From positions 28,448-92,447 of the IMG/VR virus record IMGVR_UViG_3300017613_000561: a DNA stretch of 64,000 nucleotides; one strand, given 5' to 3'. A program made the translations under genes and the position numbers. The notes below the pieces were generated by a model. It did not search any database, was not told the DNA's origin, and saw only the letters and a program-made list of their open reading frames with translations. Source of the stretch: a virus. Shown here in pieces: positions 2 through 64,000 of this stretch. How positions within the stretch are numbered: the stretch's first letter is position 1; each line of letters starts with the position of its first letter.

Positions 2-892
2 TTGGCACACCACGCAGATAAAGCGGGAAAGTGCTGGCCTTCATTCAGGTATATCCAGAAAAGCACCGGTCTTAGTCGAAGCACTGTAGCCAGAGGTATT
101 TTGAAGCTAAAAAACTGGGGCTTTATAACCACTACGCCCCGATCCGGGAAGTGGGGCGGTCAAGTTTCCAGTCTGTACACCGTGCACATAAGTGCAGGAC
201 ATGTCACAGAAGATAGAAATTCCAAAGTCACTGTGACACCCACCCCATGTCAACATGACACCCCCCCCGTGTCACCACGACACCCCCATATATTATATAA
301 ATATAATATATTGAATAATAATGGGAACAGTAACAGTGAAGCGGGGAAAACCCCGCAGAAGAAGGAGCAGATTATGAAGATACCCCAAGGACAAAAGGCA
401 AAGGATATAATCACCTCTTGGGCAGGCAAAGGCCCGAAGCACGATTACGTTCCGCCTTCGGTAGGGAACAAGTTACAGAAGGTGTGGCACAGTTCTATAG
501 AAGAATACACGCACCCATGGACACAGGAGACCCTTGGAAAGGCCACGCACTTTGGAAAGACACTAGGGTTTGAGAAGGCCAAGGCTGTTATGGAATATGT
601 TTTGGTGCATTGGTTGGATTATTGCCAGAGGGTCAAGTCAGATGTAGGGCTGTATAAGGCCCCTGTAAAGCCTAGCGTTGGATTCCTGCTTAAGCATGCT
701 GAGGTAGCGGTGAACATGTTTGAAGGCAGCACAGGGCTTAACAGCCCCTCAGAAAAGGGGCCGCAACCAGATGTAATGCATGCTGACGGCACCAAAACGA
801 CTATTCCAAAGCCTAAGGCTGGGCTGGCAGGTTCTCTTGGGGGCACGATACCCACGGTTAAGACCGCGCACTTAAGTGCAGATGAGGAGTAA
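2..892 (+). CDS. Phage replication initiator / HTH DNA-binding protein (likely 5'-truncated by the window edge)
   Basis: N-terminal CWPSFRYIQKSTGLSRSTVARGILKLKNWGFI is a typical winged-HTH of phage replisome organizers; lies upstream of loader and DnaB. Confidence 0.7.
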   Translation: MAHHADKAGKCWPSFRYIQKSTGLSRSTVARGILKLKNWGFITTTPRSGKWGGQVSSLYTVHISAGHVTEDRNSKVTVTPTPCQHDTPPVSPRHPHILYKYNILNNNGNSNSEAGKTPQKKEQIMKIPQGQKAKDIITSWAGKGPKHDYVPPSVGNKLQKVWHSSIEEYTHPWTQETLGKATHFGKTLGFEKAKAVMEYVLVHWLDYCQRVKSDVGLYKAPVKPSVGFLLKHAEVAVNMFEGSTGLNSPSEKGPQPDVMHADGTKTTIPKPKAGLAGSLGGTIPTVKTAHLSADEE

Positions 893-895
893 ATT

Positions 896-1147
896 ATGGA
901 TCAGGAACACTCACAGATGGCTTTGCAAGCAGTATCCCACGCTGCTGAAATGGCTAGCTATGCCATACAGAATGCAGCGGCTTCTTATGACAGGTATTCG
1001 GTATTGATGCGCCCAAAATTGTATATTGACGGAGATCAATGGTGCGCCTTGTACGGAGACAATATACAGGATGGAGTCGCTGGCTTTGGGACCAGCCCCG
1101 CTAAGGCACTGGAAAACTTTGACAAAAATTTTATTGCTGCCCTATAG
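896..1147 (+). CDS. Small phage hypothetical protein
   Basis: 83-aa ORF with GAGGAG RBS; DGDQWCALYGDNIQDGVAGFG motif. Confidence 0.6.
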   Translation: MDQEHSQMALQAVSHAAEMASYAIQNAAASYDRYSVLMRPKLYIDGDQWCALYGDNIQDGVAGFGTSPAKALENFDKNFIAAL

Positions 1148-1169
1148 CCCAAGGATAGCTAAGGAAGAT

Positions 1170-1829
1170 ATGACCGACTACAATGACGGTAAGGAGAATG
1201 AGGGTGAAACCATGATGGCACAATCTGTACTCACAGCAGAAGATCGGAAGGCGATAGCTTTCCACCAAAAGAAGTACGCCAAGTATTATAAGCCGGGGAT
1301 ACTCCAGGTAGACCACCACCTAAGGCTTGTTGAGAGCATTACACAGTACGCTCGGCAGGCCAGTATTCCTGAGTATTTCATTTATCAGACCAAGCTGAGT
1401 GATTATTGCGGGGAGCATGAGATCAACTATGTTCGCAGGCTCCAGTTTTGGCCCGATGAAGGAATCGCGGGAATGGTGTATGTCGGTAGTGTACCGGGAA
1501 TGGAAGACCGGATGATGGCTATTGGCGGGGCAGTTACCAGAAACATGATCGGAGCCAAGATGTTGACTCTACAGGAGTTGATTGTTCTGTTGAAGAACGA
1601 TGATCCACCAGAAGAGACTGTGGTATTGATCCCGAACTTCTTCTTGGACGAGGGTTCCGGCGGGGGCATTCCGGGTTGGCAGATAGCTATGATCGTAGGG
1701 TGGTTGATGTCCAGGTTTTCGGGGGACAAGCAGACCATTCTTCATGTTTCCAACATGGCGGCATGTGCAGCCAAGTATGGAAAAGTGCTGACAAATCATA
1801 TATCTACGCATTACGTAGTCACTGAATAA
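1170..1829 (+). CDS. DnaC/IstB-like helicase-loader homolog, apparently degenerate ATPase
   Basis: Position between initiator and DnaB; ARQASIPE and hydrophobic strand pattern; no GKT Walker A. Confidence 0.45.
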   Translation: MTDYNDGKENEGETMMAQSVLTAEDRKAIAFHQKKYAKYYKPGILQVDHHLRLVESITQYARQASIPEYFIYQTKLSDYCGEHEINYVRRLQFWPDEGIAGMVYVGSVPGMEDRMMAIGGAVTRNMIGAKMLTLQELIVLLKNDDPPEETVVLIPNFFLDEGSGGGIPGWQIAMIVGWLMSRFSGDKQTILHVSNMAACAAKYGKVLTNHISTHYVVTE

Positions 1830-1845
1830 CAATAAGGGGATCGTT

Positions 1846-3120
1846 ATGCCAGTAAGTCCTGGACGAGCATTGGTGTCTTCCATTCTTAAGGGGGATATCA
1901 ACCAGTTGCACCATTTAGGTATCAAAGAAGAGTTTTTACAGGAGGATGAAAAAGACGCACTGAATTATTTAACAGAACACGTTTACAAGTTTGGGGTAAT
2001 TCCAAACCTGGAGACTCTCCAGGAGCATGTGGATACCTTTGTGCCGGTGGTGGTGTCTGAGCCTGCGGAGTATTACATTGACCAGCTGAAGAACCGATAT
2101 TTTTATCGGACCATGAACACGGCTATGAAGCAGGCGCGGGCAGAGATGCAGGTGCTTAATCCTACGGACAACATGTTGGCCCCGATGGATCTGTTATCGG
2201 AGGCCATGCTTGCACTTAAGTTCATTGAGCATGAACGGGATCTGTTCGATTTTCGGGATGCCTATAGTGTAATCAAGGCAGCCTATGTGGAAGCCTCTAA
2301 GGGTGGGCATGAGAACAGCATCACACTGGGGTGGGATACGATAGATGTCATGTCAGGGGGGCTGGTGCCGGGAGACGTGGTGTCTTACATAGGCAGGCCT
2401 GGGTTGGGTAAGACCTGGAGCATACTGCACTCCATGCACCACGCATGGTGGAACGAAGGCAAGACAGCTTTGCTGCTATCCATGGAGATGATCCCCAAGA
2501 TCATTATGCAGCGCATGACAGCCATGCATACCCATACCGGTCTCACTGCCTTGAAATCTGCTGAGCTGACGACCAAGACCAAGAACAAGGTGTTCAATGA
2601 GATGAAGGCCATTAAGGGACATGACAAGCCCTGTTGGATAGTGGATGGGAATCTGACAGCTACAGTGGATGATCTGAAAATTTTATGTGCCCAGCTTAAG
2701 CCCGATGTTGTGTTTGTGGATGGGGCGTATATGTTGAGCCCTTCAATCGGTTATCACAGTAAGTGGGATAAGGTGACCAATACGGTGGAGGAGATAAAGA
2801 GAGACATAGCCACCAACCTCGGAACCGTAAGTGTGCTGTCTTATCAGTTCAACCGGGAGGCGGCTAAGAAGGCCAAGAAAGCAGCTGACGATATAGGGCT
2901 GGAGGACATTGGTTTGTCGGATGCTATAGGGCAGATAAGTACATTGGTGTTGGCCCTGCTGGATAATGAGTCCATTCAGACTGAGGTCAAAAGAAAGATG
3001 ACGATTATGAAGGGCAGGAATGGTGAGCGCGGGGAGTTTTTCATGAACTGGTGTTTCAAGACCATGGACTTTTCAGAGATCCTGCCGGAGGATATGCAGT
3101 CTAATCTGTCGTTCCTGTAA
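1846..3120 (+). CDS. dnaB: Replicative DnaB-like helicase
   Basis: Walker A GRPGLGKT, LSMEM, VFVDGAY, SYQFNRE, KGRNGE motifs. Confidence 0.9.
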   Translation: MPVSPGRALVSSILKGDINQLHHLGIKEEFLQEDEKDALNYLTEHVYKFGVIPNLETLQEHVDTFVPVVVSEPAEYYIDQLKNRYFYRTMNTAMKQARAEMQVLNPTDNMLAPMDLLSEAMLALKFIEHERDLFDFRDAYSVIKAAYVEASKGGHENSITLGWDTIDVMSGGLVPGDVVSYIGRPGLGKTWSILHSMHHAWWNEGKTALLLSMEMIPKIIMQRMTAMHTHTGLTALKSAELTTKTKNKVFNEMKAIKGHDKPCWIVDGNLTATVDDLKILCAQLKPDVVFVDGAYMLSPSIGYHSKWDKVTNTVEEIKRDIATNLGTVSVLSYQFNREAAKKAKKAADDIGLEDIGLSDAIGQISTLVLALLDNESIQTEVKRKMTIMKGRNGERGEFFMNWCFKTMDFSEILPEDMQSNLSFL

Positions 3121-3170
3121 TGTACCCCATTGGACTCCAATAGACTCCAATGAACCCCAATAGACTCCAA
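3121..3170. repeat. Five tandem imperfect 10-bp repeats (consensus TRGACYCCAA)
   Basis: tgtaccccat tggactccaa tagactccaa tgaaccccaa tagactccaa directly after the dnaB stop codon. Confidence 0.85.
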
Positions 3171-4239: not shown

Positions 4240-4485
4240 TTATTGCACTTGAGTGCAGGAGGGGATATGAATGCTTGGAGGAGTAGGTCAACGGGGCAAT
4301 GGTTGACGGTGGATCAGACCAGGACCCATGTTAAAACGCAGGACTCTTATCGTATGGTGGATGATATACATCAGGCTTATGTGGGGCGTATTCCGAACAG
4401 GGTTATGTCTGCCTACAATTTGATACCGGTGCTGGTGACTGTCACCCGCGCTGTTAAAATCATGGATTAATCCCAGGAGAAAGAA

Positions 4486-6683: not shown

Positions 6684-6737
6684 GGCCTAACCGTGTGCCC
6701 CCTGTTATGGGGGCGCACTTAAGTGCAAGGGATCAGA

Positions 6738-8051: not shown

Positions 8052-8060
8052 GAGTAATTT

Positions 8061-8516
8061 ATGGGTAGAAAGAAACAATACGATGACGGTCTTACGCCAT
8101 ATCAGAGATGGTATGCCAGGAACAAAAAGGCACATAACAAAAAGCGTAGGGATAAGTATCAGGAAGATACTGACTATCGTGAAAAGAAGATTCAGGAGGC
8201 CAGGGACTACCGTAGTAGTGTTCGTATGCCAGAACACCATCTACAGATACAGACGGAAGAGGGTGTTCGGTTTGTTTATCAGATACAGGTGGCGGCTGAT
8301 TGGGCTGAATGTACGGTAGAGGAATTAGACTACTGGAGGAAGAAAGGGTTGTTGGGGGCTCCTCTGTATTACGGTAAGGAAAAGGTGTATTTGAAGAGGC
8401 ATATGCTGGTCATACATAGACTGGTTGCTTTGTTAAGTCAGGGGTCTATGGATAAAGAATCTAGGACTAAATGGAAGTCTTACCTTTCAGAGGTGTGGGA
8501 TGCCCGTGCCAGATAA
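8061..8516 (+). CDS. MerR-like HTH DNA-binding protein
   Basis: YQIQVAADWAECTVEELDYWRKKGLL matches the MerR HTH pattern. Confidence 0.55.
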   Translation: MGRKKQYDDGLTPYQRWYARNKKAHNKKRRDKYQEDTDYREKKIQEARDYRSSVRMPEHHLQIQTEEGVRFVYQIQVAADWAECTVEELDYWRKKGLLGAPLYYGKEKVYLKRHMLVIHRLVALLSQGSMDKESRTKWKSYLSEVWDARAR

Positions 8517-10543: not shown

Positions 10544-11481
10544 TGAAATTTGCTAAGAAGCTGTCGGAGCATATGCCCAAGGAAGGGCTTAAGCTCCATA
10601 TACATCGGTTGCTGGCTGGGTGGGACAAGCCTAGACCAGTAACGCATATTCATGCCAGTGATTTGACCAAGATGGATAAGAACACGGAGTATTGTCCCCG
10701 GGAGTTTGCACTTCTCCAACTCACAGGGTACAAGGCCAAGGACAGGTTCATAGGTACCAGTTTACAATACACTTTTGATATGGGCAGGCTATTAGAGCAC
10801 CAGATGCAAAATGTGTATGCCAAAGATATAGCCATAGGTGAATGGTTATGTTTCCACTGCAGTAAGAAGACTTCTTTTGGGAGCCATCCCGGTACTTGTA
10901 CGGTGTGTAACCGTAAGGATTGGAACTATATTGAGCCCAGATTTATGTCCCAATATTGTGGTGCGAGTGGCGGTATAGATTTGTTGGTAAAACTAAAGGG
11001 GGAGAAAAAGTTACGGTTGGTAGAAGTGAAGAGCATAGACAAGGATATGTATAAGCAGTTGGTAGCTCCATTAGCTGAACATACGCTAAGAACCAATCTG
11101 TACCTGCGGCTGGTAGAGGAGAGTAACTCCCCGTTCAAAGATATGGTGAACACCAAGGAAGGAATGGTGTTTTACATGTGTAAAGGTTTTGGGACTCAAG
11201 ATAATAGTCTGACTGATTTTGCTGTAACAGATGCTGGGTTCAGCCCGTTTAAGGAGTTCTTTGTTGGGCGCAATGATTCGGACACAGATGCGTTGGTAGA
11301 GCTGTCCCGGCAGTTGTTTGCCTGGAGAAATAAAGCGGCCGGTGTACCGCCCCCGATATGCTCCCATGGTATGTGTCCCCGGGCTAAAAAGTGCAAGGTA
11401 GCTAAGGTGTGTTGGTCTGGAGAATATCCTCCAGGGGCCAAAATATATCTGGAGGATAAAAATGAAAGTACTGGGGCTTGA
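10543..11481 (+). CDS. Cas4-like/PD-(D/E)XK exonuclease with Cys ligands
   Basis: N-terminal CPR, GGIDLL..LVEVKS, C-terminal C-x4-C-x5-C-x5-C. Confidence 0.75.
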   Translation: MKFAKKLSEHMPKEGLKLHIHRLLAGWDKPRPVTHIHASDLTKMDKNTEYCPREFALLQLTGYKAKDRFIGTSLQYTFDMGRLLEHQMQNVYAKDIAIGEWLCFHCSKKTSFGSHPGTCTVCNRKDWNYIEPRFMSQYCGASGGIDLLVKLKGEKKLRLVEVKSIDKDMYKQLVAPLAEHTLRTNLYLRLVEESNSPFKDMVNTKEGMVFYMCKGFGTQDNSLTDFAVTDAGFSPFKEFFVGRNDSDTDALVELSRQLFAWRNKAAGVPPPICSHGMCPRAKKCKVAKVCWSGEYPPGAKIYLEDKNESTGA

Positions 11482-12013
11482 TACCTCCACCAAAACTGGG
11501 GCAGTAGTTGTTGATTTCTTTGGGCATGATGGCCCTATAACAAATGGGTTTAAAATCTTGTTTGCTGAGGAGTTGGAGCATAAGAAGCTAAAGGATTTGG
11601 AACGCTGCGCTGCTTTAGCTGGGGATGTGATTGAGATTATGGAAACGCATACCCCTGATCTGGCTGTGATTGAAGGCTACGGGTATGGGAACGCAAATAC
11701 GCTGGTTACCTTGGTGGAGATAGGTACTATCATCAGGTACTTTCTGAAACAGTACCAGCTGCCCTATGTAGTGGTGGCCCCAACCACACTAAAGAAGTTT
11801 GTGACGGGTAAGGGTAATGCCACTAAAGATCAGATGATGCTGCAGGTTTACAAGCGTTGGAGGTACGAGGCAGACACCAACAATATTGCAGATGCAGTGG
11901 GCCTTGCTATGACAGGAGGTGCGTTGTATGGGCACTTAGACATGCCCAAGCAGAACATGGAGGCTTTAAAACCACTGCGTAGAGAACTACCTTCACTATC
12001 CCTCAGCACTTAA
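11462..12013 (+). CDS. ruvC: RuvC-like Holliday junction resolvase
   Basis: VLGLDTST, AVIEGY, KKFVTGKGNATKDQM, NIADAVGLA motifs. Confidence 0.85.
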   Translation: MKVLGLDTSTKTGAVVVDFFGHDGPITNGFKILFAEELEHKKLKDLERCAALAGDVIEIMETHTPDLAVIEGYGYGNANTLVTLVEIGTIIRYFLKQYQLPYVVVAPTTLKKFVTGKGNATKDQMMLQVYKRWRYEADTNNIADAVGLAMTGGALYGHLDMPKQNMEALKPLRRELPSLSLST

Positions 12014-12078
12014 GTGCAAAACTAATTAAGAACTTAAGTGCAAAACTATTTGACAAACGCAGTTAGCTATGTCATAGT
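12006..12078 (+). promoter_or_regulatory. Promoter preceded by two tandem GCACTTAAGTGC-type palindromes
   Basis: Sites at 12006-12017 and 12030-12041 (17-bp direct repeat ACTTAAGTGCAAAACTA); TTGACA 12050-12055, N17, CATAGT 12073-12078. Confidence 0.75.
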
Positions 12079-12124: not shown

Positions 12125-12994
12125 ATGATGGCTGAGTCACCCACAATGAAAGTCCTGACTAAAGGACAGAAGGACGGGAATAAAGCAACTGCAAAGACCA
12201 CCAAGGCCCCCGCTAAGAAGGCTGTGAAAACCACCAAGTCCAAGGTCAAGACCGGTGAGGTGGTGGGTAAAGATCTGATTCTGGACACAGTACAAGAGTT
12301 GGAGAACATGAACCAAGCGGCCACCCTTAAAGGTGTCAGGGCTTGTTTGGAAACAGCTGGTTATAGTAATTTCCAGTTGGGTGGGCTATTGCAGCGCATC
12401 CAGGAAGAAGGCTGGTGGGATAACGGAGAGCATGAATCCTTCAAGGACTTTATTCAGGCGGAGTATGGTTTGGGCCTGCGTAAAGCTGCTTACCTCATGG
12501 CGATATATACCGGGCTGGTTGAATCCGGTGTCAAGTGGGAGCAGGTTCAGGCTCTGGGTTGGACCAAGCTGCGTGAACTGGTCTCTATGCTGACTGTAGA
12601 TAATGTTGATGAATGGGTGGAGAAGGCCAAGGAGATGACCACTCTGCAGTTGATCGAATACATCAAGGCAGAGAAGGCACAGGGTAAGGGTGATAAAGAT
12701 GCACCTACCAAGGAAGAGGCACAGAAGATCAAGACCAAGACCTTCAAGCTCCATGCTGACCAGCTGGAGACCGTAGACACAGCACTTGAACGGGCTCGGG
12801 AAGAGGGTGAGACGGAGTATGACACGGTAGCACTTGATTACATCTGCATGCGGTACCTCAGTAATGATGCAGGTAAGGCCAAGACGACTAAGCCGCCTAC
12901 TTTGGAGAAGCAGTTCAAAGAAGCCGGTGTTGATAAGGTGCTGGAAGCCTTTGAAGAGGCGTTTCCAGAGTGCAACATCACGGTAGCTATGTAA
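12125..12994 (+). CDS. Putative DNA-binding protein
   Basis: Lys-rich N-terminus; SFKDFIQAEYGLGLRKAAYLM HTH-like segment; LGWTKLREL. Confidence 0.55.
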   Translation: MMAESPTMKVLTKGQKDGNKATAKTTKAPAKKAVKTTKSKVKTGEVVGKDLILDTVQELENMNQAATLKGVRACLETAGYSNFQLGGLLQRIQEEGWWDNGEHESFKDFIQAEYGLGLRKAAYLMAIYTGLVESGVKWEQVQALGWTKLRELVSMLTVDNVDEWVEKAKEMTTLQLIEYIKAEKAQGKGDKDAPTKEEAQKIKTKTFKLHADQLETVDTALERAREEGETEYDTVALDYICMRYLSNDAGKAKTTKPPTLEKQFKEAGVDKVLEAFEEAFPECNITVAM

Positions 12995-15662: not shown

Positions 15663-15882
15663 TGCACTCAAGTGCAGAGGATCAGAAGATGGATAGAAAC
15701 GAGCTGATAGAACGCATAGTAGCGGTGATGGACGATTGGGACCGGGATACCTTACTAGCGTGGGCCAAGACAGAGAGGCGGGAGGATCTTGATAGGTTGG
15801 AGGATGAAGACATCAGGAACATCGCTGACACTGTACTTGGGGACTGGGAGCAGGAAGAGTACGACAACGAGGGTTAGAACCA

Positions 15883-18466: not shown

Positions 18467-19484
18467 AGGTAAGGTAGTGTTAGTCACAGGGGCAGGTGGG
18501 TCTATAGGAACCCGTCTGGTTAATGAGCTGTTGAATAACCCTAAGCCAAAGAGCCTTATACTTGTAGACCTGTGTGAGTACAATTTGTATCAGGTACAGC
18601 GAGTAGTCGAAGAATCCGGCGTAGCACTTAAGTGCAAGTACCTGTTGGCAGACATCCGGCACCGACATCTGATGGACTGTGTGTTTAGAGCAGAGGCCCC
18701 AGATGTGGTGTTTCACGCGGCAGCTCTGAAGCATGTTCCAATGTTGGAGACTCCGCATAATACGTTGGAGGCCATACGTACAAATATCCTGGGGACTAAG
18801 AATGTGCTGGACATGTCTGTGAGGTATGGAGCAGAACAGTTCCTACTGATATCGACAGATAAGGCCGTGAACCCTGTGTCCATGATGGGGGCCACCAAGA
18901 CCTTTGCTGAGGGCTATGTGCGGGAGGCAGCTACATCAGTCAGCCTGAATGTGTCCATAGTGCGCTTCGGTAATGTTCTTGGTAGTTCCGGGTCAGTAGT
19001 GCCTCTGTTTGCTCGTCAGGTTGCTGAGGGCGGGCCTGTAACCGTAACGCATCCAGATATCATTAGGTATTTCATGTCTATAGATGATGCTGTGCGTTTA
19101 GTAGTTGAATCCGCACACCTGACGATAGCTTCGCATAAGACCTCATGCACTTACGTGCTGAACATGGGAGATCCTGTGAAGATAGATGACTTGGCTAAGA
19201 AAATGATCTGGGAGTCGGGTAAGGATATAGCCATAAAGTACATAGGGCTCAGAGCCGGTGAGAAGATGGAGGAGGAGCTGCATTATGCTAATGAGTTCCT
19301 GGTACCGACAAGTCGTAAGAATATCAATATAGTACGGCAGAGCGACCACCTTAGAAGGGGGTTTGTTCGCGTAGCCAATGAGCTTGTTACCTTGTGTGAT
19401 GAACGTGAGTTGCCTGATGCCTTTGTTGCCATTAAAGAAAAAGTTCCGTATCAAGGAGATACGATATTATGCGAGAGTTTGTAG
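18456..19484 (+). CDS. UDP-GlcNAc 4,6-dehydratase (CapD/PglF/WbpM catalytic domain)
   Basis: VTGAGGSIG, FHAAALKHVP, ISTDKAVNP..MGATK, VRFGNVLGSSGSVVP, GLRAGEK motifs. Confidence 0.95.
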   Translation: MSVEGKVVLVTGAGGSIGTRLVNELLNNPKPKSLILVDLCEYNLYQVQRVVEESGVALKCKYLLADIRHRHLMDCVFRAEAPDVVFHAAALKHVPMLETPHNTLEAIRTNILGTKNVLDMSVRYGAEQFLLISTDKAVNPVSMMGATKTFAEGYVREAATSVSLNVSIVRFGNVLGSSGSVVPLFARQVAEGGPVTVTHPDIIRYFMSIDDAVRLVVESAHLTIASHKTSCTYVLNMGDPVKIDDLAKKMIWESGKDIAIKYIGLRAGEKMEEELHYANEFLVPTSRKNINIVRQSDHLRRGFVRVANELVTLCDERELPDAFVAIKEKVPYQGDTILCESL

Positions 19485-29174: not shown

Positions 29175-29459
29175 CGCAAGAAGTAAGCAGTGATGGATAA
29201 GAAAGAAAGTAAAGAAGGCTGTTAAGCATGTAGATCCCCCTAAGGGTTCAGGTTGGGGAACCACGTTTGATATGAAAGAGGCTATGGCTAAGGGGTATAT
29301 CGGGGAGGTAGTCGTGATGCCCAGGAAAATAGTGAATGTCTACCGTACCTTACGAGGACGAAAGACTATTGGTCCGGCGACCATGTTTTACTACGGGGAG
29401 ATAGATGACTATCTCAGGGACAAGTTTCAGATAGTGAGCACTTAAGTGCAGTGGGGATC

Positions 29460-31371: not shown

Positions 31372-32004
31372 GCACTAAAGGTGACAGCCATCAGCTTGAC
31401 GACTACACATCTTTTTTGATGCCCATAATGGTTAAGGAAGGACGCATGCATATGTGGCACAGCATCTGTAGTATACATAGAAGCCATGTTGATACCTGCC
31501 CTGTATGCAAGACCGGATTCTGGGCCGAGATAGTGTACCCAGAAGAAAAAACAAGTGTTGGTGAACATGAACCCTGAAAAGTTACTGCGGGTCTGTGCCT
31601 CATGTGAATGGGTGTTTAAGACAGGCTCGGTGGAGTGCCCCATGTGTGGGTTCGGATCGTATGGTGCCCACTATGTATATGGGCGCAAGGCTTATAAGTA
31701 TGCCCACACTCAGAAACCTTGGCGCGACAATAAGATGTTTAAATACAGCATGCACTTAAGTGCAGAGATAAGGAGAGCGTTAGATGAGCAAAAAACGAAA
31801 GAAAGAACCGCCAGTGCAGGAGTACAAGGAGCGGTACATTTGTCGTTGTAACAAGGTGTATCGGGTGAAGCTTAAGCCAACAGATTATTATGCGATCCAC
31901 CATGGAAGTTTTACGTCAGTACAGGATGCCAAAGATTTTGTGGATGAGCGGCAACGCCAGCTGTCCATGAGTAAGGCAGAGGCTAATCGGTTGAGGGTCA
32001 TACA

Positions 32005-35555: not shown

Positions 35556-35786
35556 GCTATGGCAGTCACCATTGTGCGGGGCCTCCCCGCAGTAGAACAA
35601 AATGAGGAGGTTATGGTGTTGGTGTGCAAGGCCTGGGATAAGAATGTAGACTTCAGTTCTTACGCCCGGGGCCTTGCTCTCTTGTCACTTACGACTACAG
35701 AAAAACAAGAGTTGCTTTGGTTAGCCAAGGTGTGGAGTTACAAGTTCTGTTTGTAGAAAGTATGCACTTAAGTGCGAGGAGAAGGA

Positions 35787-37280: not shown

Positions 37281-39401
37281 ATGTTAGAAGTATCCGCATT
37301 TGGAGCCATTGGTGATTCTGCCACGGTCTGCCAGAAAGAATTGGTAGGGGGCAAGGGTGCAGCACTAGCTGAGATGGCTTCTCTAGGGTTGCCAGTACCA
37401 CCGGGTTTCACCCTGACCACAGAGCTTTGTAATCTCTACCGCTGGCTACATCAATATGGCCGAAAGGCAGAGGACAAAGATGCTGTCATTGAAGACATCA
37501 TGGAGCTGATAGTAACGCCCATGTTGGAACGGTTGGAGAGCCATTTTGGATACATGCCTTTGTTAAGTGTTCGTTCCGGTGCTCGGGTGTCGATGCCTGG
37601 AATGATGGACACAGTTTTAAATGTTGGGCTAGTTGAATCCAACCTTGTGGAATGGGCAGATCGTATAGGTGGACGGGCTACATTAGATAGCTACCGTAGA
37701 CTTATTCAGATGTATGGTTCGGTAGTCCTCAATGTTGAAGATAGACATTTTGAAGGAATACTCCAAAGTGTTAAGGATCGTGCCGGAGTGGAGGACGATG
37801 CAGGGCTTGAAAATGAGCATTTGTTTGGTTTGAACGAGAAGTACCTGCAGCTGTTGGACAGCATCAATGAGCCGCTTCCTCAGACCTTGGAAGAGCAGCT
37901 GGCTGGAGCTATTCGGGCAGTATTTGATAGTTGGGATAATGACAGGGCTAAGCACTATCGTAAGATGCATGGGTACCCAGATGATTGGGGTACAGCTGTA
38001 GTCGTTCAGGCCATGGTGTTTGGCAATATGAATGAGCAGTCCTGTTCCGGCGTGTTGTTCACCAGAGACCCAGCCACTGGGCAACCTGGAGTTGTTGGTG
38101 AGTTCCTTCCCAATGCTCAAGGCGAAGATGTAGTTGCCGGAGTCAGAACCCCGCAACCTCTTATTGATATGTTTGATTGGAATGAGTCGGCACATATAGA
38201 GTTGTTTGAATTGGCTCATAAGATGGAATTGCATTATCGTGATATGCAGGACATGGAGTTCACAGTTCAGGATGGGAAGTTGTATATCCTGCAAACCAGA
38301 GATGGTAAGCGTACTGCCAAAGCAGCCTTTAGGATTGCCCACAATATGTATACGGAAGAGATGATATCCAAGGAGGATATGAGAAAGCGGCTGACTGGTA
38401 AGATGTATGATGCACTCAAGTGCACCAAGATTGACCCAGAGCATTATGTTGAGCCCTGCCACAAGGGGATTCCAGCGGGGGGTAATGTAGTTTCGGGAGT
38501 AATCGCTACCTCAAGTTCCATGGCGGTAGCCTTGGCAGGCAAAGCCAACGTAATCCTGGTAACGAATGAGACGACCCCTAACGACATCAAGGGTATGGAG
38601 GCTAGTGTAGGTATCCTGACACGTACAGGAGGAGCTACTAGCCACGCTGCAGTGGTTGCTAGGGGCCTAAACAAGGCCTGTGTGGTGGGGTGTCAGGACC
38701 TGGACCTTGATACTGTGGCAGATAATACGCATGTAACCATAGACGGTGCCACTGGGGAGGTCTGGTTGAAAGACATGCCCCTGGTGGGGGGTGGTAGTGA
38801 TTCCTATGCTGAGACAGTGCTTGAAATTCTGAGAGGCGCTAAGGAGAAAGCGCCAGCATATGTTTTTAGCGGCACCCTGCAGGAAGGAGAGCCTGTCTGG
38901 ATAGATACAGCCCACATGTCCGTGTCTAATATGGTGGATGTTATTGCTGCCCTGACGTATCACCCGCTGGTAGTCATAGAGTTGTCGGATTGGTTCAGTA
39001 ACGGTGATGGCCTGGATGATAATTTTTTCAAGACCATGATAACTCCGCAGTACATTAAGGAGGCTAGGTTGGAAGGTCTAAAGACTAAGGTACTGGCCTT
39101 AGAAGCAATAGCAGTAACCAAGCATCCGGTGGTGTTCGTAAAGCTGCCAGATATTGCCCCAGCCGCTTATAAGAAGTCACTGGAGAAGGCAGGATACACG
39201 GTACTGGGATCGGTGAACACAGTAGCTGATTTGTTGAAGGGCGGGGTGGTAGACCCCTCAACTGACTTTATCAAGAAGGTCATGGGTGGGAAGACGGCGT
39301 ACAACAAAATGATAGCGATGTTGAAGAAGAACGGTGTGGAGTTTATGGACATGCCGAAACCAGTATACAAAGAAATGGAAGTATACGAATTGCTGGGTTA
39401 G
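37281..39401 (+). CDS. Pyruvate,phosphate-dikinase-like protein: ATP-grasp + phosphohistidine domains, no recognisable pyruvate-binding barrel
   Basis: GGKGAALAEM, SVRSGARVSMPGMMDT, QAMVFGN, AQGEDVVAG, QDMEFT..LQTR, TSHAAVVARG; then ~200 aa unlike the PPDK C-terminal domain. Confidence 0.9.
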   Translation: MLEVSAFGAIGDSATVCQKELVGGKGAALAEMASLGLPVPPGFTLTTELCNLYRWLHQYGRKAEDKDAVIEDIMELIVTPMLERLESHFGYMPLLSVRSGARVSMPGMMDTVLNVGLVESNLVEWADRIGGRATLDSYRRLIQMYGSVVLNVEDRHFEGILQSVKDRAGVEDDAGLENEHLFGLNEKYLQLLDSINEPLPQTLEEQLAGAIRAVFDSWDNDRAKHYRKMHGYPDDWGTAVVVQAMVFGNMNEQSCSGVLFTRDPATGQPGVVGEFLPNAQGEDVVAGVRTPQPLIDMFDWNESAHIELFELAHKMELHYRDMQDMEFTVQDGKLYILQTRDGKRTAKAAFRIAHNMYTEEMISKEDMRKRLTGKMYDALKCTKIDPEHYVEPCHKGIPAGGNVVSGVIATSSSMAVALAGKANVILVTNETTPNDIKGMEASVGILTRTGGATSHAAVVARGLNKACVVGCQDLDLDTVADNTHVTIDGATGEVWLKDMPLVGGGSDSYAETVLEILRGAKEKAPAYVFSGTLQEGEPVWIDTAHMSVSNMVDVIAALTYHPLVVIELSDWFSNGDGLDDNFFKTMITPQYIKEARLEGLKTKVLALEAIAVTKHPVVFVKLPDIAPAAYKKSLEKAGYTVLGSVNTVADLLKGGVVDPSTDFIKKVMGGKTAYNKMIAMLKKNGVEFMDMPKPVYKEMEVYELLG

Positions 39402-43994: not shown

Positions 43995-44219
43995 ATGTTA
44001 ACGCAAGAACAGTTTGACAGCCTAGAGATTGGGGAGGTCATAGAAGCCGGGGTTCTGTTTGGCAGCATGACCAATGAACCTATCTGCTGGTCGATCCTGG
44101 GTAAGAGCGAGGCCACGATGCACTTAAGTGCTCACTGGGAGGGGGTGCTCATGGGGGAGTACACCTATAAGTTGAATAAGACCTCGTTAGGGTATCTGTT
44201 ACGGAGGGTGGAGTTATGA
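43995..44219 (+). CDS. Small hypothetical protein
   Basis: ATG right after the previous stop; coupled to the next gene. Confidence 0.5.
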   Translation: MLTQEQFDSLEIGEVIEAGVLFGSMTNEPICWSILGKSEATMHLSAHWEGVLMGEYTYKLNKTSLGYLLRRVEL

Positions 44220-50129: not shown

Positions 50130-50157
50130 TTGACATACGTTACTCCCCCAGTATAAT
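50130..50157 (+). promoter_or_regulatory. Near-consensus sigma70 promoter for the non-coding unit
   Basis: TTGACA-N16-TATAAT. Confidence 0.8.
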
Positions 50158-50162
50158 ACGTC

Positions 50163-50990: not shown

Positions 50991-50993
50991 TTT
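50959..50993 (+). terminator. Intrinsic terminator
   Basis: aaaccctgatc-tcacaag-gatcggggttt followed by TATTTT. Confidence 0.85.
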
Positions 50994-50999: not shown

Positions 51000-51122
51000 G
51001 CACTTAAGTGCGTCTCCTTGCATTTCGGAGCACTCACAACCCCCCAACCCTAAAACATAAGCCCACAAGCAGCACTTAAGTGCGTAGAAAGTCTTGCATT
51101 CGTTGGTTAGAGGTCATATTCT
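51000..51122 (+). promoter_or_regulatory. Head-operon promoter region with two GCACTTAAGTGC sites
   Basis: Sites at 51000 and 51072; TTGCAT(51094)-N17-TATTCT(51117). Confidence 0.55.
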
Positions 51123-51128
51123 CACCTC

Positions 51129-51704
51129 ATGCGGGTACTTAAATACGATGACGAGAAACAGATTGTCTACGGGGAAGTTTATGCCCCGGGGGTACCCGAT
51201 GCCCATGGAGATTTCATGACTGAAGACTCCATCCTGGATATGGCCCATAATTTTCTAGCCAATAACCGTGTTGAGAAGATTGATAGAAATCACGATCATA
51301 ATCAGATCGATGCCGTTGTTGTGGAATCGTTTATTGCAAGACCGGGAGATCCTGACTTCATTGTTGGAAGTTGGGTAGCTGCGGTTAAAGTACACGATCC
51401 TGAAACTTGGGGGCAGATCAAAAAGGGGGACCTGAATGGGTTCTCTTTGGATGGTGCAGCTAAAGGTTCAATAACGGAACTAGAGGTTGAAATCCCTGAC
51501 TTTGTGGAAGGACGCACTACCAAAGCAGAAGATGACCATGACCACACTTTTAAAGTCGCATTTGATGACGAAGGTAATTTTGTGGGTGGTGAGACTGACG
51601 AGGTGGCCGGACATATCCATGCCATAGTTAAGGGCACTGTAACCGAAGAAGCGGGTGGGCACAACCATAGATTCTCATACATAGAGGCACTGATTGATGG
51701 CTAG
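51129..51704 (+). CDS. XkdF-like prohead protease
   Basis: QIVYGEVYAP..DAHGD..H..VVESFIA..GSW..GDLNGFS. Confidence 0.85.
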   Translation: MRVLKYDDEKQIVYGEVYAPGVPDAHGDFMTEDSILDMAHNFLANNRVEKIDRNHDHNQIDAVVVESFIARPGDPDFIVGSWVAAVKVHDPETWGQIKKGDLNGFSLDGAAKGSITELEVEIPDFVEGRTTKAEDDHDHTFKVAFDDEGNFVGGETDEVAGHIHAIVKGTVTEEAGGHNHRFSYIEALIDG

Positions 51705-54824: not shown

Positions 54825-55037
54825 ATGATTACGATATCGCTGCAACGTGGAAGTCGGTATAACTATAAGGGTGAGCTGTACCAGCGTGGAAAGGGGCGGT
54901 CTGTTAGTAACAATTTGGCAAAAGAGCTACTTGCCTTAACAGACGATAAGGATGTACCTTGGTTCCTTAGGGTGGATACTAAGGAGTCTGAGGAGCCTGC
55001 AGGTGATGGGTCCAAGGAGCCTGTAACCGAGGTTTAG
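54825..55037 (+). CDS. Small virion-associated hypothetical protein
   Basis: 70 aa, GAGGA RBS. Confidence 0.55.
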   Translation: MITISLQRGSRYNYKGELYQRGKGRSVSNNLAKELLALTDDKDVPWFLRVDTKESEEPAGDGSKEPVTEV

Positions 55038-55063
55038 CACTTAAGTGCATAAGGGGCGACATC

Positions 55064-61676: not shown

Positions 61677-61679
61677 ATT

Positions 61680-62063: not shown

Positions 62064-62074
62064 GAGATACGTAA

Positions 62075-62617
62075 ATGGGTACAGTACATGTGCAGAATGT
62101 GGTTACCAGATCTGCTGTTGTGGCGGCTGCAGGAGAGAAAGTATTTATTGCCCCCAAGGAAACTTTCAGTTTTCAGATTGTTCCTGGGGCCAGCGGGACT
62201 TTGCAGGCGTTGATTACCTTGGATGGTGCAGATGCTGCTAATGGTGTTAATGCTGAGTTTACCGCTACCAATGCAACAAATCTCCTGACTTCGGTTATGC
62301 ACGGGTTGGTGGATGGTAGGTCTCTGGAGGTATCCAACTCAGGGGGAGCCCTTCCAGGGGGGTTGTCAGCCAGTACCATGTACTGGGTAGTGAATGCTAC
62401 GGCAGATACTTTCCAGCTGTCAGCTACTCCTGGTGGCTCAGCTATAGCCCTCAGTAATGACGGTACCGGAACTCAGACCTGGACCCTGACTGCTACCTGG
62501 ACAGCATTGGAGGCCGCACAATCTGCAGCAAAAACGTACCTGTTGAACTACCCGATTGTGGCTATCAAGGCGATTGCTGCCACTGCCAACGGACAGGTTT
62601 TCTTAGCGAGGAAATAA
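62075..62617 (+). CDS. Virion structural protein
   Basis: Beta-rich; HGL..G..LPGGL..T.YWVV..TFQLSAT.GG motif. Confidence 0.55.
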   Translation: MGTVHVQNVVTRSAVVAAAGEKVFIAPKETFSFQIVPGASGTLQALITLDGADAANGVNAEFTATNATNLLTSVMHGLVDGRSLEVSNSGGALPGGLSASTMYWVVNATADTFQLSATPGGSAIALSNDGTGTQTWTLTATWTALEAAQSAAKTYLLNYPIVAIKAIAATANGQVFLARK

Positions 62618-62621
62618 GGTA

Positions 62622-63629
62622 ATGAGTATACAAGCAAGTGAGATCATCTGGAGAGAAGCCGGTGTTATGGTGGACGGGGCCAGTAACGGTGGGCGTATGG
62701 TGTCAGTTGCTATCCCTACCGGAGTCAAGAACAACCTCTGGCCGGATATTCCCCAGAGTGAACGTACTGCTGGCTCTACCAAGTACCGCAAGGTATTTCT
62801 GCACATTGCCAACGATACGGATCTGGCTTTGGTTCAGCCCTACATATTTGTGGAGACCAATTCCCCGGGGGATGATGCTGTAGTATTGTTCGAAGGTACC
62901 CAGATAGATACTGAGGCTACCCTGGACGATACCAGAGTCTATGGCTGTGGACCTTTGAATGCCAACGTATCTCAGGGGGCCTCCACCTTTGATGTGAATA
63001 CTGAGGGTGTAGGGTTTGATATGTTCCAGGACGGGGATACCATTCGGATATCGGACAAGGATGACGTGGACGATACCAACCCAGCACATCATGAGCAGTA
63101 TGTGACTATCAATGGTGATCCAAGTTACGCGGGGGATGTGGCTACGATTGTCATTGACCAGACTTTGGATTTTGCATACACCACTGCTGAGAATACTAGG
63201 GTGTCCTCAGTTATTGCTCCTGCAGATATCGAAGGTTCGGTTGACAGTTTTTCAGTAACCAGTGGTTCCGGTACTTATGATGATACTACGTATCCAGTTC
63301 TGGTAGATCATATTGGTGGTATTGAGCAGGATTGGACCCTGACTTTCCAGGCAGATGGAACAACTTTTGACCTAAGTGGTGACACCCTTGGAGCAGTGGG
63401 GGAGTTTACCACCGCTTCAGATCTGAATCCCACCAACAGTGATTTTTCCAAGCCGTATTTTGTTATGGATAACGCCGGGTTTGGGGGCACTTTTGCAGAT
63501 GGGGACACCATTACTTTCACGACCCACCCAGCAGCATATCCGCTGTGGTACAAGAGGGTGGTCCCGGCCGCAGCTTCAAGTCTGTCTGCTGATCAGGTTA
63601 TTGTTGCTGTAGACGGGCAGTCAGCCTAA
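62622..63629 (+). CDS. Tail protein
   Basis: NGGRM..NNLWPDI..ER.AG..YRKVF..PLWYKRVVPA. Confidence 0.65.
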   Translation: MSIQASEIIWREAGVMVDGASNGGRMVSVAIPTGVKNNLWPDIPQSERTAGSTKYRKVFLHIANDTDLALVQPYIFVETNSPGDDAVVLFEGTQIDTEATLDDTRVYGCGPLNANVSQGASTFDVNTEGVGFDMFQDGDTIRISDKDDVDDTNPAHHEQYVTINGDPSYAGDVATIVIDQTLDFAYTTAENTRVSSVIAPADIEGSVDSFSVTSGSGTYDDTTYPVLVDHIGGIEQDWTLTFQADGTTFDLSGDTLGAVGEFTTASDLNPTNSDFSKPYFVMDNAGFGGTFADGDTITFTTHPAAYPLWYKRVVPAAASSLSADQVIVAVDGQSA

Positions 63630-63638
63630 GGGGGCTAC

Positions 63639-64000
63639 ATGCCTGAGGTAGTACAGACAACTCTGCAGCCGCACTTAAGTGCAGACTACTCGTCTGGAGG
63701 GTTGTCTTGGGCCTCGGATGGCAGGGCGGCAACCTTTCCGGCGCAGTATGTGCGGTTGTATGGCACGTATACGCATAAGCATACTACCTCGGGGTCTCTG
63801 GTCAGTGCTGGAGCAGAAACTGAGGCGATAGACACCTTCATGGCGTTTACCGGTGGTAGGGAAATATCCCTATCTCATGCTAATCCCTTGAGCCTTTCTT
63901 ACAGTAAGGTGGGGGATGCTTATGATTCAGATGGTAATGTGCTATCAGGGGTAGTGCTGTCTTACGATGCCACCAGTAATAAGATTATGTCCAACAAGGA
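63639..64000 (+). CDS. Tail-region protein, truncated by the window end (not in ORF track)
   Basis: ATG at 63639 after AAGGGGG; frame open to the end (MPEVVQTTLQPHLSADYS...). Confidence 0.6.
   Translation, partial: MPEVVQTTLQPHLSADYSSGGLSWASDGRAATFPAQYVRLYGTYTHKHTTSGSLVSAGAETEAIDTFMAFTGGREISLSHANPLSLSYSKVGDAYDSDGNVLSGVVLSYDATSNKIMSNK

What the first reader, a model, noticed from the sequence alone, without database searches (positions are those of the whole stretch)
184..63682. Genome-wide set of a perfect 12-bp palindrome (GCACTTAAGTGC), maintained inside coding genes
Seen: at least 13 exact and 8 one-mismatch copies (counted by eye), on average one per ~3 kb, in every module. About 0.004 exact copies are expected by chance in 64 kb (64000/4^12). 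Inside genes it is read in different frames (HLSA in the initiator and tail ORFs; ALKC in the dehydratase and PPDK-like genes; ST-stop at the end of ruvC), so the constraint acts on the DNA, not the protein. Most copies are not at promoters. Inference: it is a binding site for a dimeric phage protein that marks or organises the whole genome. Possible roles are parS/matS-like loading or compaction, a transcription roadblock like mycobacteriophage stoperators, or a self tag directing modification and packaging. Candidate binders are the ParB-like protein (22296-23135) and the 12125-12994 protein.
Basis: partly seen in the sequence, partly recalled or inferred. Interest (0 to 1): 0.9.

Follow-up and report, generated by a model that had tools for sequence, protein, structure and literature searches.

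The report
Genome-wide operator set of a phage regulator
The repeated 12-bp palindrome is real and is most likely the DNA-binding site of the phage's own uncharacterised ParB/KorB-like helix-turn-helix protein (gene 12125-12994); the site-protein pair is conserved, with co-varying specificity, across a whole lineage of about 80-100 kb siphoviruses and has not been described.

Summary
GCACTTAAGTGC occurs 13 times exactly and 9 times with one mismatch in the window (0.01 and 0.18 expected), and 15 + 10 times in the 92,447-bp phage genome.

64% of copies lie at gene junctions or in intergenic DNA (background 12.5%). Typically the palindrome is followed by 10-20 nt containing the Shine-Dalgarno sequence and then the start codon. 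Some copies abut sigma70-like -35 boxes.

Every relative examined carries its own variant, TGCA-N6-TGCA. This holds for Vibrio SIO-2 and V-YDF132, Stenotrophomonas DLP5, Rhodobacter RcZahn, Rhizobium TM16 and about 70 metagenomic loci.

Four results point to the 289-aa protein at 12125-12994 as the binder:
- Its fold matches ParB, KorB and Noc DNA-binding domains.
- It is predicted to form a homodimer.
- In 42 of 76 related loci a site lies within 300 nt upstream of its gene. In the five genomes inspected that site ends 7-9 bp before the -35 box.
- Residue 150 co-varies with base 5 of the half-site (R with C, K with A). R arose 5-7 times, and this is the best-associated column by far.

The ParB-like CTPase at 22296-23135 is not the binder; SIO-2 lacks it.

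The function is inferred: a KorB- or stoperator-like global regulator or organiser. No binding was measured. The scan had noted this same palindrome once before, from an overlapping window of this genome (e1-6075832).

The parts
184..195 (.). one-mismatch copy GCACATAAGTGC, inside the HTH_36 initiator-like gene
868..879 (.). exact copy in the last codons of ORF 2-892, 16 nt before ATG 896
2212..2223 (.). one-mismatch copy inside the DnaB-like helicase gene
4245..4256 (.). one-mismatch copy (GCACTTGAGTGC), 6 nt after the stop at 4239 and 10 nt before ATG 4267
6715..6726 (.). exact copy in the spacer, 11 nt before ATG 6738 of the SF2 helicase gene
12006..12017 (.). exact copy, distal operator of a tandem pair; its TAA is the stop codon of ORF 11462-12013; predicted centre about -73.5 of the promoter of the binder gene
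12030..12041 (.). one-mismatch copy (GAACTTAAGTGC), proximal operator; ends 8 bp before the -35 box TTGACA (12050-12055), 83 nt before ATG 12125
12125..12994 (+). gene of the proposed binder: 289 aa, disordered K/A/T-rich N-terminal tail (1-47), helical ParB/KorB/Noc-like DNA-binding core (about 61-190), C-terminal helical domain; no Pfam family, phrog_17202
15664..15675 (.). one-mismatch copy (GCACTCAAGTGC), 2 nt after the stop at 15662 and 13 nt before ATG 15689
18624..18635 (.). exact copy inside ORF 18444-19484
19147..19158 (.). one-mismatch copy inside ORF 18444-19484
20694..20705 (.). one-mismatch copy near the end of ORF 20125-20805
25738..25749 (.). one-mismatch copy, 2 nt after the stop of the terminase large subunit gene (25736) and 11 nt before ATG 25761
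27911..27922 (.). exact copy; its TAA ends ORF 27745-27918; 13 nt before GTG 27936
29438..29449 (.). exact copy; its TAA ends ORF 29272-29445; 10 nt before ATG 29460
31752..31763 (.). exact copy, 20 nt before ATG 31784
35764..35775 (.). exact copy, 8 nt after the stop at 35756 and 11 nt before ATG 35787 (TSCPD-domain gene)
38412..38423 (.). one-mismatch copy inside the PPDK-like kinase gene, at the same place as a DLP5 site in the orthologous gene
44120..44131 (.). exact copy in the gap between ORF 43109-43993 and ORF 44216-44638
51000..51011 (.). exact copy directly after the terminator-like hairpin 50958-50988, upstream of the head-gene block
51072..51083 (.). exact copy; the 12-mer ends 10 bp (the 14-mer 9 bp) before a -35-like TTGCAT (51094) - 17 nt - TATTCT (51117), ahead of the prohead protease gene (ATG 51129); a site before this gene is kept in 5 of 6 genomes
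55037..55048 (.). exact copy overlapping the stop of ORF 54825-55037, 15 nt before ATG 55064
63671..63682 (.). exact copy 42 nt after the stop at 63629; start of the next gene uncertain

Best explanation
The palindrome (T)GCACTTAAGTGC(A) is the DNA operator of the phage's own 289-aa protein encoded at 12125-12994. This protein has a helix-turn-helix DNA-binding core of the ParB/KorB/Noc type but no CTPase domain. It binds as a homodimer, one subunit per half-site TGCACTT.

A tandem pair of sites abuts the -35 box of the protein's own sigma70-type promoter, which implies autoregulation. Another site precedes the head-gene (protease) promoter. About 20 further sites are spread over the genome, mainly in the short spacers between genes.

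Inferred function: bound dimers act as a genome-wide transcription brake or silencer. The closest analogies are KorB at its O_B operators and mycobacteriophage stoperators. This may operate in a plasmid-like carrier state such as the one reported for the relative DLP5.

What is shown here: the enrichment, the placement of the sites, their conservation across the lineage, and the protein-site co-variation. What is inferred: the binding itself, the direction of regulation and the physiological role.
For: 1. Enrichment and placement. There are 15 exact and 10 one-mismatch copies against about 0.01 and 0.2 expected. 64% lie at gene boundaries or in intergenic DNA against 12.5% background, P = 2e-9.

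2. Lineage-wide family. DLP5 carries TGCAATCAATTGCA (27 exact copies counting both orientations), V-YDF132 TGCAATTAATTGCA (33), RcZahn 28, TM16 18, and SIO-2 25 copies within 2 mismatches. Most of the 76 IMG/VR loci carry a variant of the family.

3. Fold. The AF2 model (pLDDT 79) matches:
- Noc DNA-binding domain with DNA, Foldseek probability 0.93
- ParB-parS, Z 7.8
- Spo0J, Z 7.3
- KorB-operator, Z 6.9
- SopB, VirB and P1 ParB, Z 4.4-4.6

4. Homodimer model. The score is 0.61 against a best control of 0.00. That mark was reached by 20 of 30 proteins solved as pairs of one chain and by 1 of 23 solved as single chains. The runs agree in at least 92% of contacts, and the partner pLDDT is at least 77.

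5. Conserved operator. In 42 of 76 loci a site lies within 300 nt upstream of the homolog's start codon, mostly 56-106 nt (83 nt here). A tandem pair 23-24 bp apart recurs in L084, L097 and L145. In five genomes the site ends 7-9 bp before the -35 box.

6. Specificity co-variation. Residue 150 is R in all 9 loci of that set that have R (C5 share at least 0.3). It is K where base 5 is A, and S or A where base 5 is a mix of A and G. Of 89 loci with both traits, the counts are R and C5 9, R without C5 0, non-R with C5 4, non-R without C5 76. R arose 5-7 times on the tree. Column 150 gives Fisher p = 1.9e-7 and the next best column 5e-3. Eight neighbouring conserved proteins give at best 8.8e-5. 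L111, whose motif has C instead of G at position 2, uniquely changes the otherwise invariant R119 and Y123.

7. Half-sites are often unequal. In RcZahn 12 of 22 sites are non-complementary at positions 5/10. This fits a protein dimer and not an RNA stem.
Against: No binding was measured. The fold matches have middling Z scores for an all-helical protein, and the top VIA-align hit is the Raf1 alpha-domain (Z 9.7). There is no sequence-level similarity to ParB.

The phylogenetically independent test has few pairs: 3-4 on well-supported branches, all concordant, sign-test p 0.125-0.25. There are exceptions. Some K150 proteins have sites with C5 in part of their half-sites (SIO-2 12%, L106 38%, L125 33%, L101 38%). 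L091 and L093 also carry R150, but no motif could be determined for them and they were left out of the counts.

The roadblock or silencer role is analogy only. In four relatives (DLP5, SIO-2, RcZahn, TM16) 64-69% of sites lie inside genes, and in V-YDF132 42%. In several relatives the spacing is more even than random. That would also fit an architectural role.

Only two site positions are conserved relative to genes. The motif is nearly the same in phages of hosts from different bacterial classes, which is unlike fast-evolving immunity specificities.
Confidence: 0.6

Rival explanations
1. Same binder, different purpose. The evenly spread sites serve genome architecture, segregation or compaction (centromere-, matS- or Noc-like) and not transcription. 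Only the two promoter-linked sites would be regulatory.
For: Spacing is more even than random in DLP5 (CV 0.49), V-YDF132 (0.38), RcZahn (0.59) and TM16 (0.56), all with P <= 0.001. In this genome it is weakly so (CV 0.60, P = 0.03). Many sites in relatives are intragenic, and most positions are not conserved relative to genes. The fold is of the ParB/Noc type. The motif is conserved across very distant phages, as parS is across bacteria. DLP5 persists as a phagemid (PMC5834331, PMC7326821).
Against: No ParA-type ATPase is present. The binder has no CTPase domain for clamping or spreading. Sites are strongly enriched at gene boundaries in all six genomes. In this phage the tail-gene region (genome 1-25.5 kb) has only 2 sites.
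Confidence: 0.22
2. The ParB-like CTPase protein (22296-23135) is the binder. The palindromes would be parS-like loading sites from which it slides.
For: It is a true ParB/Noc homolog over residues 7-150, covering the arginine-containing GxxRxxA-type motif and the start of the HTH region (phmmer against Noc 7nfu, E = 7e-11; Pfam ParB_N). parS and O_B sites are palindromes of similar size.
Against: SIO-2 has no ParB_N protein. The family search finds none, and tblastn gives nothing below E = 0.02 with the V-YDF132 copy as query and nothing below 3.6 with this phage's own copy. SIO-2 nevertheless keeps about 25 sites. The V-YDF132 copy is only 24% identical to ours, although its motif is the common one. 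No ParA is present. The co-varying residue lies in the other protein. I saw no site at a conserved position before this gene, though I did not look for one specifically.
Confidence: 0.07
3. The element works in RNA. A short hairpin (GCAC-UUAA-GUGC) just 5' of ribosome-binding sites would serve mRNA processing, stability or translational control.
For: Ten copies sit 10-20 nt before start codons, directly 5' of the Shine-Dalgarno sequence, and all genes are on one strand. In V-YDF132, SIO-2 and DLP5 the site before the protease gene lies just downstream of a -10 box, so it would be in the 5' end of the transcript.
Against: The stem is only 4-5 bp. The sequence is conserved, not merely the pairing. 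In relatives many sites have non-complementary positions that would break the stem: RcZahn 12 of 22 at positions 5/10, TM16 20 of 23 at 6/9, SIO-2 11 of 25 at 3/12. Sites also lie upstream of -35 boxes at a fixed 7-9 bp distance, outside those transcripts. The co-variation is with a DNA-binding-type protein residue.
Confidence: 0.05
4. The sites are targets of a host factor, or of a DNA modification or restriction-type enzyme, and not of the 12125-12994 protein.
For: The genome encodes a sugar pathway with a glycosyltransferase and several enzymes of unknown target (earlier notes e1-6075835 and e1-6075841). The core contains CTTAAG.
Against: Hosts span Alpha- and Gammaproteobacteria, yet the motif family is shared. 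Restriction targets are normally avoided, not enriched. One site per 3-4 kb is too sparse to protect DNA. Motif variants track a phage protein residue.
Confidence: 0.03

Closest known systems
KorB and its O_B operators on plasmid RK2 (ParB-family global repressor; PMC11790492)
   Same: A palindromic operator of 13-14 bp is present in a dozen or more copies spread over a 60-90 kb mobile replicon. The DNA-binding domain has the same fold class (KorB-operator 1r71, Z 6.9). Some operators lie directly upstream of a -35 box; here the gap is 7-9 bp. The binder's own gene is among the targets. That RK2 has 12 O_B sites and a class of sites next to the -35 box is from my own knowledge.
   Different: The phage protein has no ParB_N CTPase domain and therefore no sliding-clamp mechanism. 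No ParA/IncC partner and no KorA-like partner were identified. There is no sequence similarity to KorB. Most sites are at gene junctions, not near promoters.
Stoperators of Cluster A mycobacteriophages (L5 gp71-type repressor; PMC9283540, PMC6550527)
   Same: More than twenty copies of one short site are spread over a phage genome, preferentially in short intergenic spacers and at gene ends. The site and the binder co-evolve among related phages. One site regulates a promoter and the others lie within transcription units.
   Different: Stoperators are asymmetric, oriented, and bound by a monomeric two-domain repressor. Here the site is a palindrome and the binder is a predicted dimer of ParB-type fold. 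The motif is nearly invariant across very distant phages instead of diversifying into immunity groups. Blocking of transcription elongation is not shown here.
Noc/NBS, SlmA/SBS and MatP/matS (chromosome-wide palindromic site sets)
   Same: Dispersed 12-16 bp palindromes are bound by a dimeric protein, and Noc has the ParB fold (Foldseek probability 0.93 to the Noc DNA-binding domain). In relatives the distribution is roughly even.
   Different: Those are cellular systems for timing division or organising chromosome domains. Noc needs its CTPase domain and a membrane-targeting helix, and both are absent here.
P1 C1 repressor operators and the dispersed centromere sites of N15-type plasmid prophages (from my own knowledge)
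   Same: Plasmid-prophage genomes carry many dispersed binding sites for a single phage regulator or partition protein, and some of these sites influence late-gene expression.
   Different: P1 operators are asymmetric 17-mers at promoters. N15 sites work with SopA/SopB, and no ParA or SopA homolog is present here.

Membership tests
ParB/KorB/Noc CTPase family (binder 12125-12994) | N-terminal ParB_N CTP-binding domain with the GxxRxxA motif | tested here: not met
   No Pfam match at E <= 0.01. Residues 1-47 are disordered and the first helix begins at residue 51. The profile search of PDB sequences finds no ParB.
ParB/KorB/Noc CTPase family (binder 12125-12994) | ParB-type helix-turn-helix DNA-binding domain | tested here: inconclusive
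   Structural matches over residues about 61-190 to ParB-parS (Z 7.8), Spo0J (7.3), KorB-operator (6.9), Noc (Foldseek probability 0.93), SopB, VirB and P1 ParB. The Z values are in the range common for helical proteins, and the top hit is Raf1.
ParABS partition system | ParA-type Walker ATPase partner encoded with ParB and parS | tested here: not met
   PF13614 and PF01656 have no match in the 92-kb genome, while the control genomes match.
ParABS partition system | Palindromic centromere site bound by the HTH of a ParB dimer | tested here: inconclusive
   The site is palindromic, the homodimer model passes (0.61 against 0.00) and a residue co-varies with a base. No binding assay was done.
KorB-type global operator network | Multiple dispersed palindromic operators, including sites directly upstream of -35 boxes and at the regulator's own promoter | tested here: met
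   There are 25 sites. The site upstream of the binder gene ends 7-9 bp before the -35 box in five genomes. A site lies upstream of the gene in 42 of 76 loci.
KorB-type global operator network | CTP-dependent sliding clamp locked by a partner (KorA or TrbA) | tested here: not met
   The binder has no CTPase domain. The separate ParB_N protein is missing in SIO-2. A partner was not searched for.
Cluster A mycobacteriophage stoperators | Many dispersed copies in short intergenic regions of a phage genome | tested here: met
   64% of copies are at boundaries or in intergenic DNA against 12.5% background.
Cluster A mycobacteriophage stoperators | Asymmetric site in one orientation relative to transcription, bound by a monomeric repressor | tested here: not met
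   The site is a perfect palindrome and the binder is predicted to be a homodimer.
Cluster A mycobacteriophage stoperators | Bound repressor stops transcription elongation | not testable with these tools
   This needs RNA-seq or reporter assays with and without the protein.

The most novel reading that the evidence does not exclude
A previously unrecognised family of CTPase-less ParB-fold proteins marks whole phage genomes at roughly regular 2.5-4 kb intervals with a 14-bp palindrome. The pairing has been conserved since before the split of phages infecting Alpha- and Gammaproteobacteria. It would act as a genome-wide organiser or silencer of an extrachromosomal prophage, possibly together with the separate ParB_N CTPase as a split ParB. 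That would be a new mode of phage genome management, distinct from promoter-bound repressors.
Probability: 0.25. Interest if true: 0.85.

Novelty: new variant of a known kind. Interest (0 to 1): 0.62.

Why it matters
Three things follow if this holds.

First, it gives a function to a large family of viral proteins that has none. The family has no Pfam entry, falls in phrog_17202 ("unknown function"), and forms ESM Atlas clusters of 70-245 viral members.

Second, it provides a cognate site and a candidate specificity-determining residue (R or K at position 150 against C or A at base 5). That prediction can be tested with one mutant and two oligonucleotides.

Third, it supplies a candidate master regulator or organiser for a widespread siphovirus lineage whose lysogeny and gene-timing control are unknown. 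The lineage includes SIO-2/VHS1-like Vibrio phages, the Stenotrophomonas Delepquintavirus phages being considered for therapy, and Rhizobium and Rhodobacter phages. DLP5 is reported to persist as a phagemid. This genome has no tyrosine integrase, and no repressor was recognised among the proteins I scanned.

It would also be a ParB-type DNA-binding domain working without the CTP switch.

Tried and rejected
- Same motif in other viruses. An exact scan of IMG/VR for GCACTTAAGTGCAG gave 40 contigs with single, chance-level hits. The five largest had only 1-2 copies. There is no close relative with this exact motif.
- megablast of 20 kb against GenBank phages gave no match.
- The search for related loci with the single protein found nothing. 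The alignment A1 was needed.
The closest homologs, P0003 and P0004 (60-62% identity), could therefore not be examined in their DNA context.
- The MerR-like protein (8061-8516) was rejected as binder because it was found in only 3 of the related loci.
- A histone-like basic tail is not a family feature. The N-terminal tails vary in length (15-183 aa) and charge.
- A virion protein of DLP3 called "gp_066" in PMC7326821 appears, by numbering and size (204 aa), to be the neighbouring gene and not the homolog. No conclusion was drawn from it.
- Literature. The DLP3 paper (which also discusses DLP5) and the RcZahn paper do not mention the repeats. Full-text search for four of the motif sequences returned only unrelated primers.
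- The independent-pairs sign test cannot reach 0.05 with the 3-4 well-supported pairs available.
- Even spacing in this genome is only marginal (P = 0.03 for exact copies, not significant with one-mismatch copies).
- The codon shuffle is a weak test here, because I expect the copies that remained to be those outside the shuffled codons.

Full report
**1. Observation**

GCACTTAAGTGC occurs 13 times exactly and 9 more times with one mismatch in the window. Dinucleotide-preserving shuffles give 0.01 and 0.18. The window is bases 28448-92447 of a 92,447-bp virus record rated 100% complete. The whole genome holds 15 exact and 10 one-mismatch copies, and the reversed pattern holds none. It is the commonest 12-mer and the only enriched palindrome in the genome. 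The only other repeated word family is a set of about 18 sigma70-like promoters, aaATAAcaTTTGACAAAC-N12-TATAGTTA. Flanking bases extend the motif weakly to TGCACTTAAGTGCA.

**2. Anatomy**

All long ORFs are on the + strand. 16 of 25 lie in intergenic DNA or within 30 nt of a gene end, against 12.5% of the genome (P = 2e-9).

Ten copies share one layout: palindrome, then 10-20 nt holding a purine-rich Shine-Dalgarno sequence, then the start codon. These are at 868, 4245, 6715, 15664, 25738, 27911, 29438, 31752, 35764 and 55037. In three genes the TAA inside the palindrome is the stop codon (ORFs ending at 12013, 27918 and 29445).

Two places in the window have copies next to promoter-like sequences:
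- The tandem pair 12006/12030 ends 8 bp before the -35 box TTGACA of the promoter for gene 12125-12994.
- The pair 51000/51072 lies between a terminator-like hairpin and the prohead protease gene. The second copy lies 9-10 bp before TTGCAT-17-TATTCT.

A further copy lies outside the window at genome position 25563, 76 nt before the first early promoter. About eight copies are truly intragenic.

**3. What phage this is**

The capsid protein is 50-55% identical to those of Stenotrophomonas phages DLP5, DLP3 and Summit, Rhodobacter phage RcZahn, and the SIO-2/VHS1 group of Vibrio phages. Rhizobium phage RHph_TM16 also belongs to this group; its homolog of the proposed binder is 35.5% identical. 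Gene order matches DLP5. DLP5 is reported to be temperate and kept as a phagemid (PMC5834331, PMC7326821). This genome has no tyrosine integrase and no ParA-type ATPase.

**4. The motif is a lineage-wide family**

Every relative carries its own dispersed palindrome of the form TGCA-N6-TGCA.

| Phage or locus | Motif | Copies |
|---|---|---|
| DLP5 | TGCAATCAATTGCA | 19 + 8 in reverse orientation |
| V-YDF132 | (T)TGCAATTAATTGCA(A) | 33 |
| RcZahn | TGCARTYRAYTGCA | 28 |
| TM16 | TGCAACATATTGCA and similar | 18 |
| SIO-2 | family consensus | 25 within two mismatches |

Reversed-pattern controls gave 0-2.

An alignment-based scan of IMG/VR returned 76 loci of about 20 kb around homologs of gene 12125-12994. 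Most of them show a locus-specific variant:
- TGACATTAATGTCA (L088)
- TGAACTYAAGTTCA (L135)
- TGCACTCAAGTGCA (L126)
- TCCAATCAATTGGA (L111)
- GGCAATCAATTGCC (L143, L144)
- TGAAATTAATTTCA (L134)
- TGATCTTAGTATCA (L076, L078, L079)

In all six complete genomes the sites are enriched at gene boundaries (31-64% against 12-16% background, P from 0.02 down to 6e-10). In four of the relatives 64-69% of sites are nevertheless inside genes, and in V-YDF132 42%.

Spacing is more even than random in DLP5, V-YDF132, RcZahn and TM16 (CV 0.38-0.59, P <= 0.001). It is only marginally so here.

The DLP3 paper and the RcZahn paper do not mention these repeats, and four of the motif sequences do not occur in the searchable literature in this context.

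**5. Who binds it**

The protein at 12125-12994 has 289 aa, no Pfam family, and falls in phrog_17202 of unknown function. It has about 100 homologs, many on contigs of 90-100 kb. Five lines of evidence point to it.

(a) Fold. The AF2 model (pLDDT 79) has a disordered tail (residues 1-47) and a helical core. Residues about 61-190 match many different ParB-family DNA-binding domains solved with DNA:
- Noc, Foldseek probability 0.93
- ParB-parS, Z 7.8
- Spo0J, Z 7.3
- KorB-operator, Z 6.9
- SopB, VirB and P1 ParB, Z 4.4-4.6

Each Z alone is unremarkable for a helical protein, and the top hit is the Raf1 alpha-domain. I take the recurrence of the ParB family as moderate evidence.

(b) Dimer. The homodimer model scores 0.61 against a best control of 0.00. 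That mark was reached by 20 of 30 proteins solved as pairs of one chain and by 1 of 23 solved as single chains. The runs agree in at least 92% of contacts, and the partner pLDDT is at least 77. This supports dimerisation but does not show it.

(c) Conserved operator. In 42 of 76 loci a motif copy lies within 300 nt upstream of the homolog's start codon, mostly 56-106 nt (83 nt here). A tandem pair 23-24 bp apart recurs in L084, L097 and L145. In this phage, DLP5, V-YDF132, RcZahn and TM16 the site ends 7-9 bp before the -35 hexamer. At one site per 2.5-4 kb, chance would give a few per cent of loci.

(d) Co-variation. Residue 150, in the conserved helix GWTKL[K/R], tracks base 5 of the half-site:
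- R where base 5 is C. This phage, L089, L126 and L135 have C in 100% of half-sites. The L076 group, L154 and L185 have it in part.
- K where base 5 is A.
- S or A where base 5 is a mix of A and G (RcZahn, L105, L102, L077).

Among 89 loci with both traits, the counts are R with C5 9, R without C5 0, other residues with C5 4, and other residues without C5 76. L091 and L093 also carry R150, but their motif could not be determined and they were left out. On a tree built without that column, R arose 5 times (7 in the larger set). The 3-4 pairs on well-supported branches all agree, but that is too few for a significant sign test.

Column 150 is far the best of all columns (Fisher 1.9e-7, next 5e-3). 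Eight neighbouring conserved proteins, scanned in the same way, reach at best 8.8e-5 and otherwise no better than 1e-3. The signal is therefore not general shared ancestry. Arginine reading the G of a C:G pair is chemically ordinary (my inference).

(e) L111. This is the only locus whose motif has C instead of G at position 2. It is also the only one that replaces the otherwise invariant R119 and Y123.

**6. Rival binders**

The ParB-like protein at 22296-23135 is a true ParB/Noc homolog with the CTPase motif. However:
- SIO-2 has none. The family search finds no match, and tblastn gives nothing below E = 0.02.
- The V-YDF132 copy is 24% identical to ours.

Both phages keep full site sets. The MerR-like protein at 8061-8516 occurs in only 3 related loci.

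An RNA-hairpin reading is weakened in two ways. Many sites in relatives have unequal half-sites that would break a stem. Sites also lie at a fixed distance upstream of -35 boxes.

**7. What it does (inferred)**

Two site positions are conserved relative to genes. One is before the binder's own gene. The other is before the prohead protease gene that opens the head block, in 5 of 6 genomes.

At the binder's own promoter the geometry, a site abutting the -35 box, resembles KorB operators of the promoter-adjacent class. That suggests autoregulation.

At the protease gene the site is upstream of the -35 box in this phage, but just downstream of the -10 box in V-YDF132, SIO-2 and DLP5. The downstream position is a classical repressor position.

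The remaining sites sit mainly in inter-gene spacers. I think the most likely role is a genome-wide brake on transcription, comparable to a KorB network or to stoperators. It may matter in a plasmid-like carrier state. An architectural or segregation role for the same protein-site pair is the main alternative. It is favoured by the even spacing and by the deep conservation of the motif.

**8. Comparison and novelty**

In function this resembles KorB/O_B, stoperators and Noc/NBS. It is not a member of any of these. It has no CTPase domain and no ParA. The site is a palindrome, not an asymmetric oriented site. There is no sequence similarity to the known families. I rate it a new variant of a known kind (a dispersed operator set), with an unannotated binder family and a specific, testable recognition rule.

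**9. Limits**

The number of independent lineages is small.

The earlier scan notes e1-6075832 and e1-6075833 had proposed the same palindrome and the same candidate gene from reading alone. I tested both here.

Noticed in passing
window 1118-50129 and genome 25639-27621: About 18 sigma70-like promoters belong to one family, aaATAAcaTTTGACAAAC-N12-TATAGTTA. They are spread over the early and middle region and are separate from the palindromes, apart from the one at 12049.
   Followed up: partly
window 51094-51131: The prohead protease gene (ATG 51129) has no Shine-Dalgarno sequence. The predicted promoter TTGCAT-17-TATTCT would start transcription at or next to the ATG, which suggests a leaderless mRNA.
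   Followed up: no
window 12011-12013, 27916-27918, 29443-29445: The TAA in the centre of the palindrome serves as the stop codon of three genes.
   Followed up: yes
window 38412-38423; DLP5 (L046) record position 86707: A site lies at the same place (+1136 and +1133 nt) inside the PPDK-like kinase gene of this phage and of DLP5. It looks like an old intragenic site kept in position.
   Followed up: partly
window 22296-23135: This ParB/Noc-like protein has an intact CTPase-type motif and lies directly upstream of the putative small and large terminase genes. It is absent from SIO-2 and very divergent in V-YDF132. Its role is unknown, and it might cooperate with the palindrome binder.
   Followed up: partly
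window 50130-50993: This roughly 860-nt gene-free stretch has a perfect TTGACA-16-TATAAT promoter (50130) and a terminator-like hairpin (50958-50988), directly followed by a palindrome copy.
   Followed up: no
window 39824-40198: A small protein matches the CsrA family (E = 2.9e-7). Phage-encoded CsrA-like regulators are uncommon.
   Followed up: no
DLP5 and TM16 genomes (L045/L046, L067-L072): Where the motif centre is asymmetric, one orientation predominates on the coding strand: DLP5 CA 19 against TG 8, TM16 GCAACATATTGC 7 against 2. This is unexplained. It may reflect coding constraints or a directional function.
   Followed up: no
genome 25545-25995 (upstream of the window): The 450-bp gap between the late and early gene blocks holds a palindrome copy (25563), several further inverted repeats built on ACTAAGTA, and two family promoters. 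It is a possible control or origin region.
   Followed up: no
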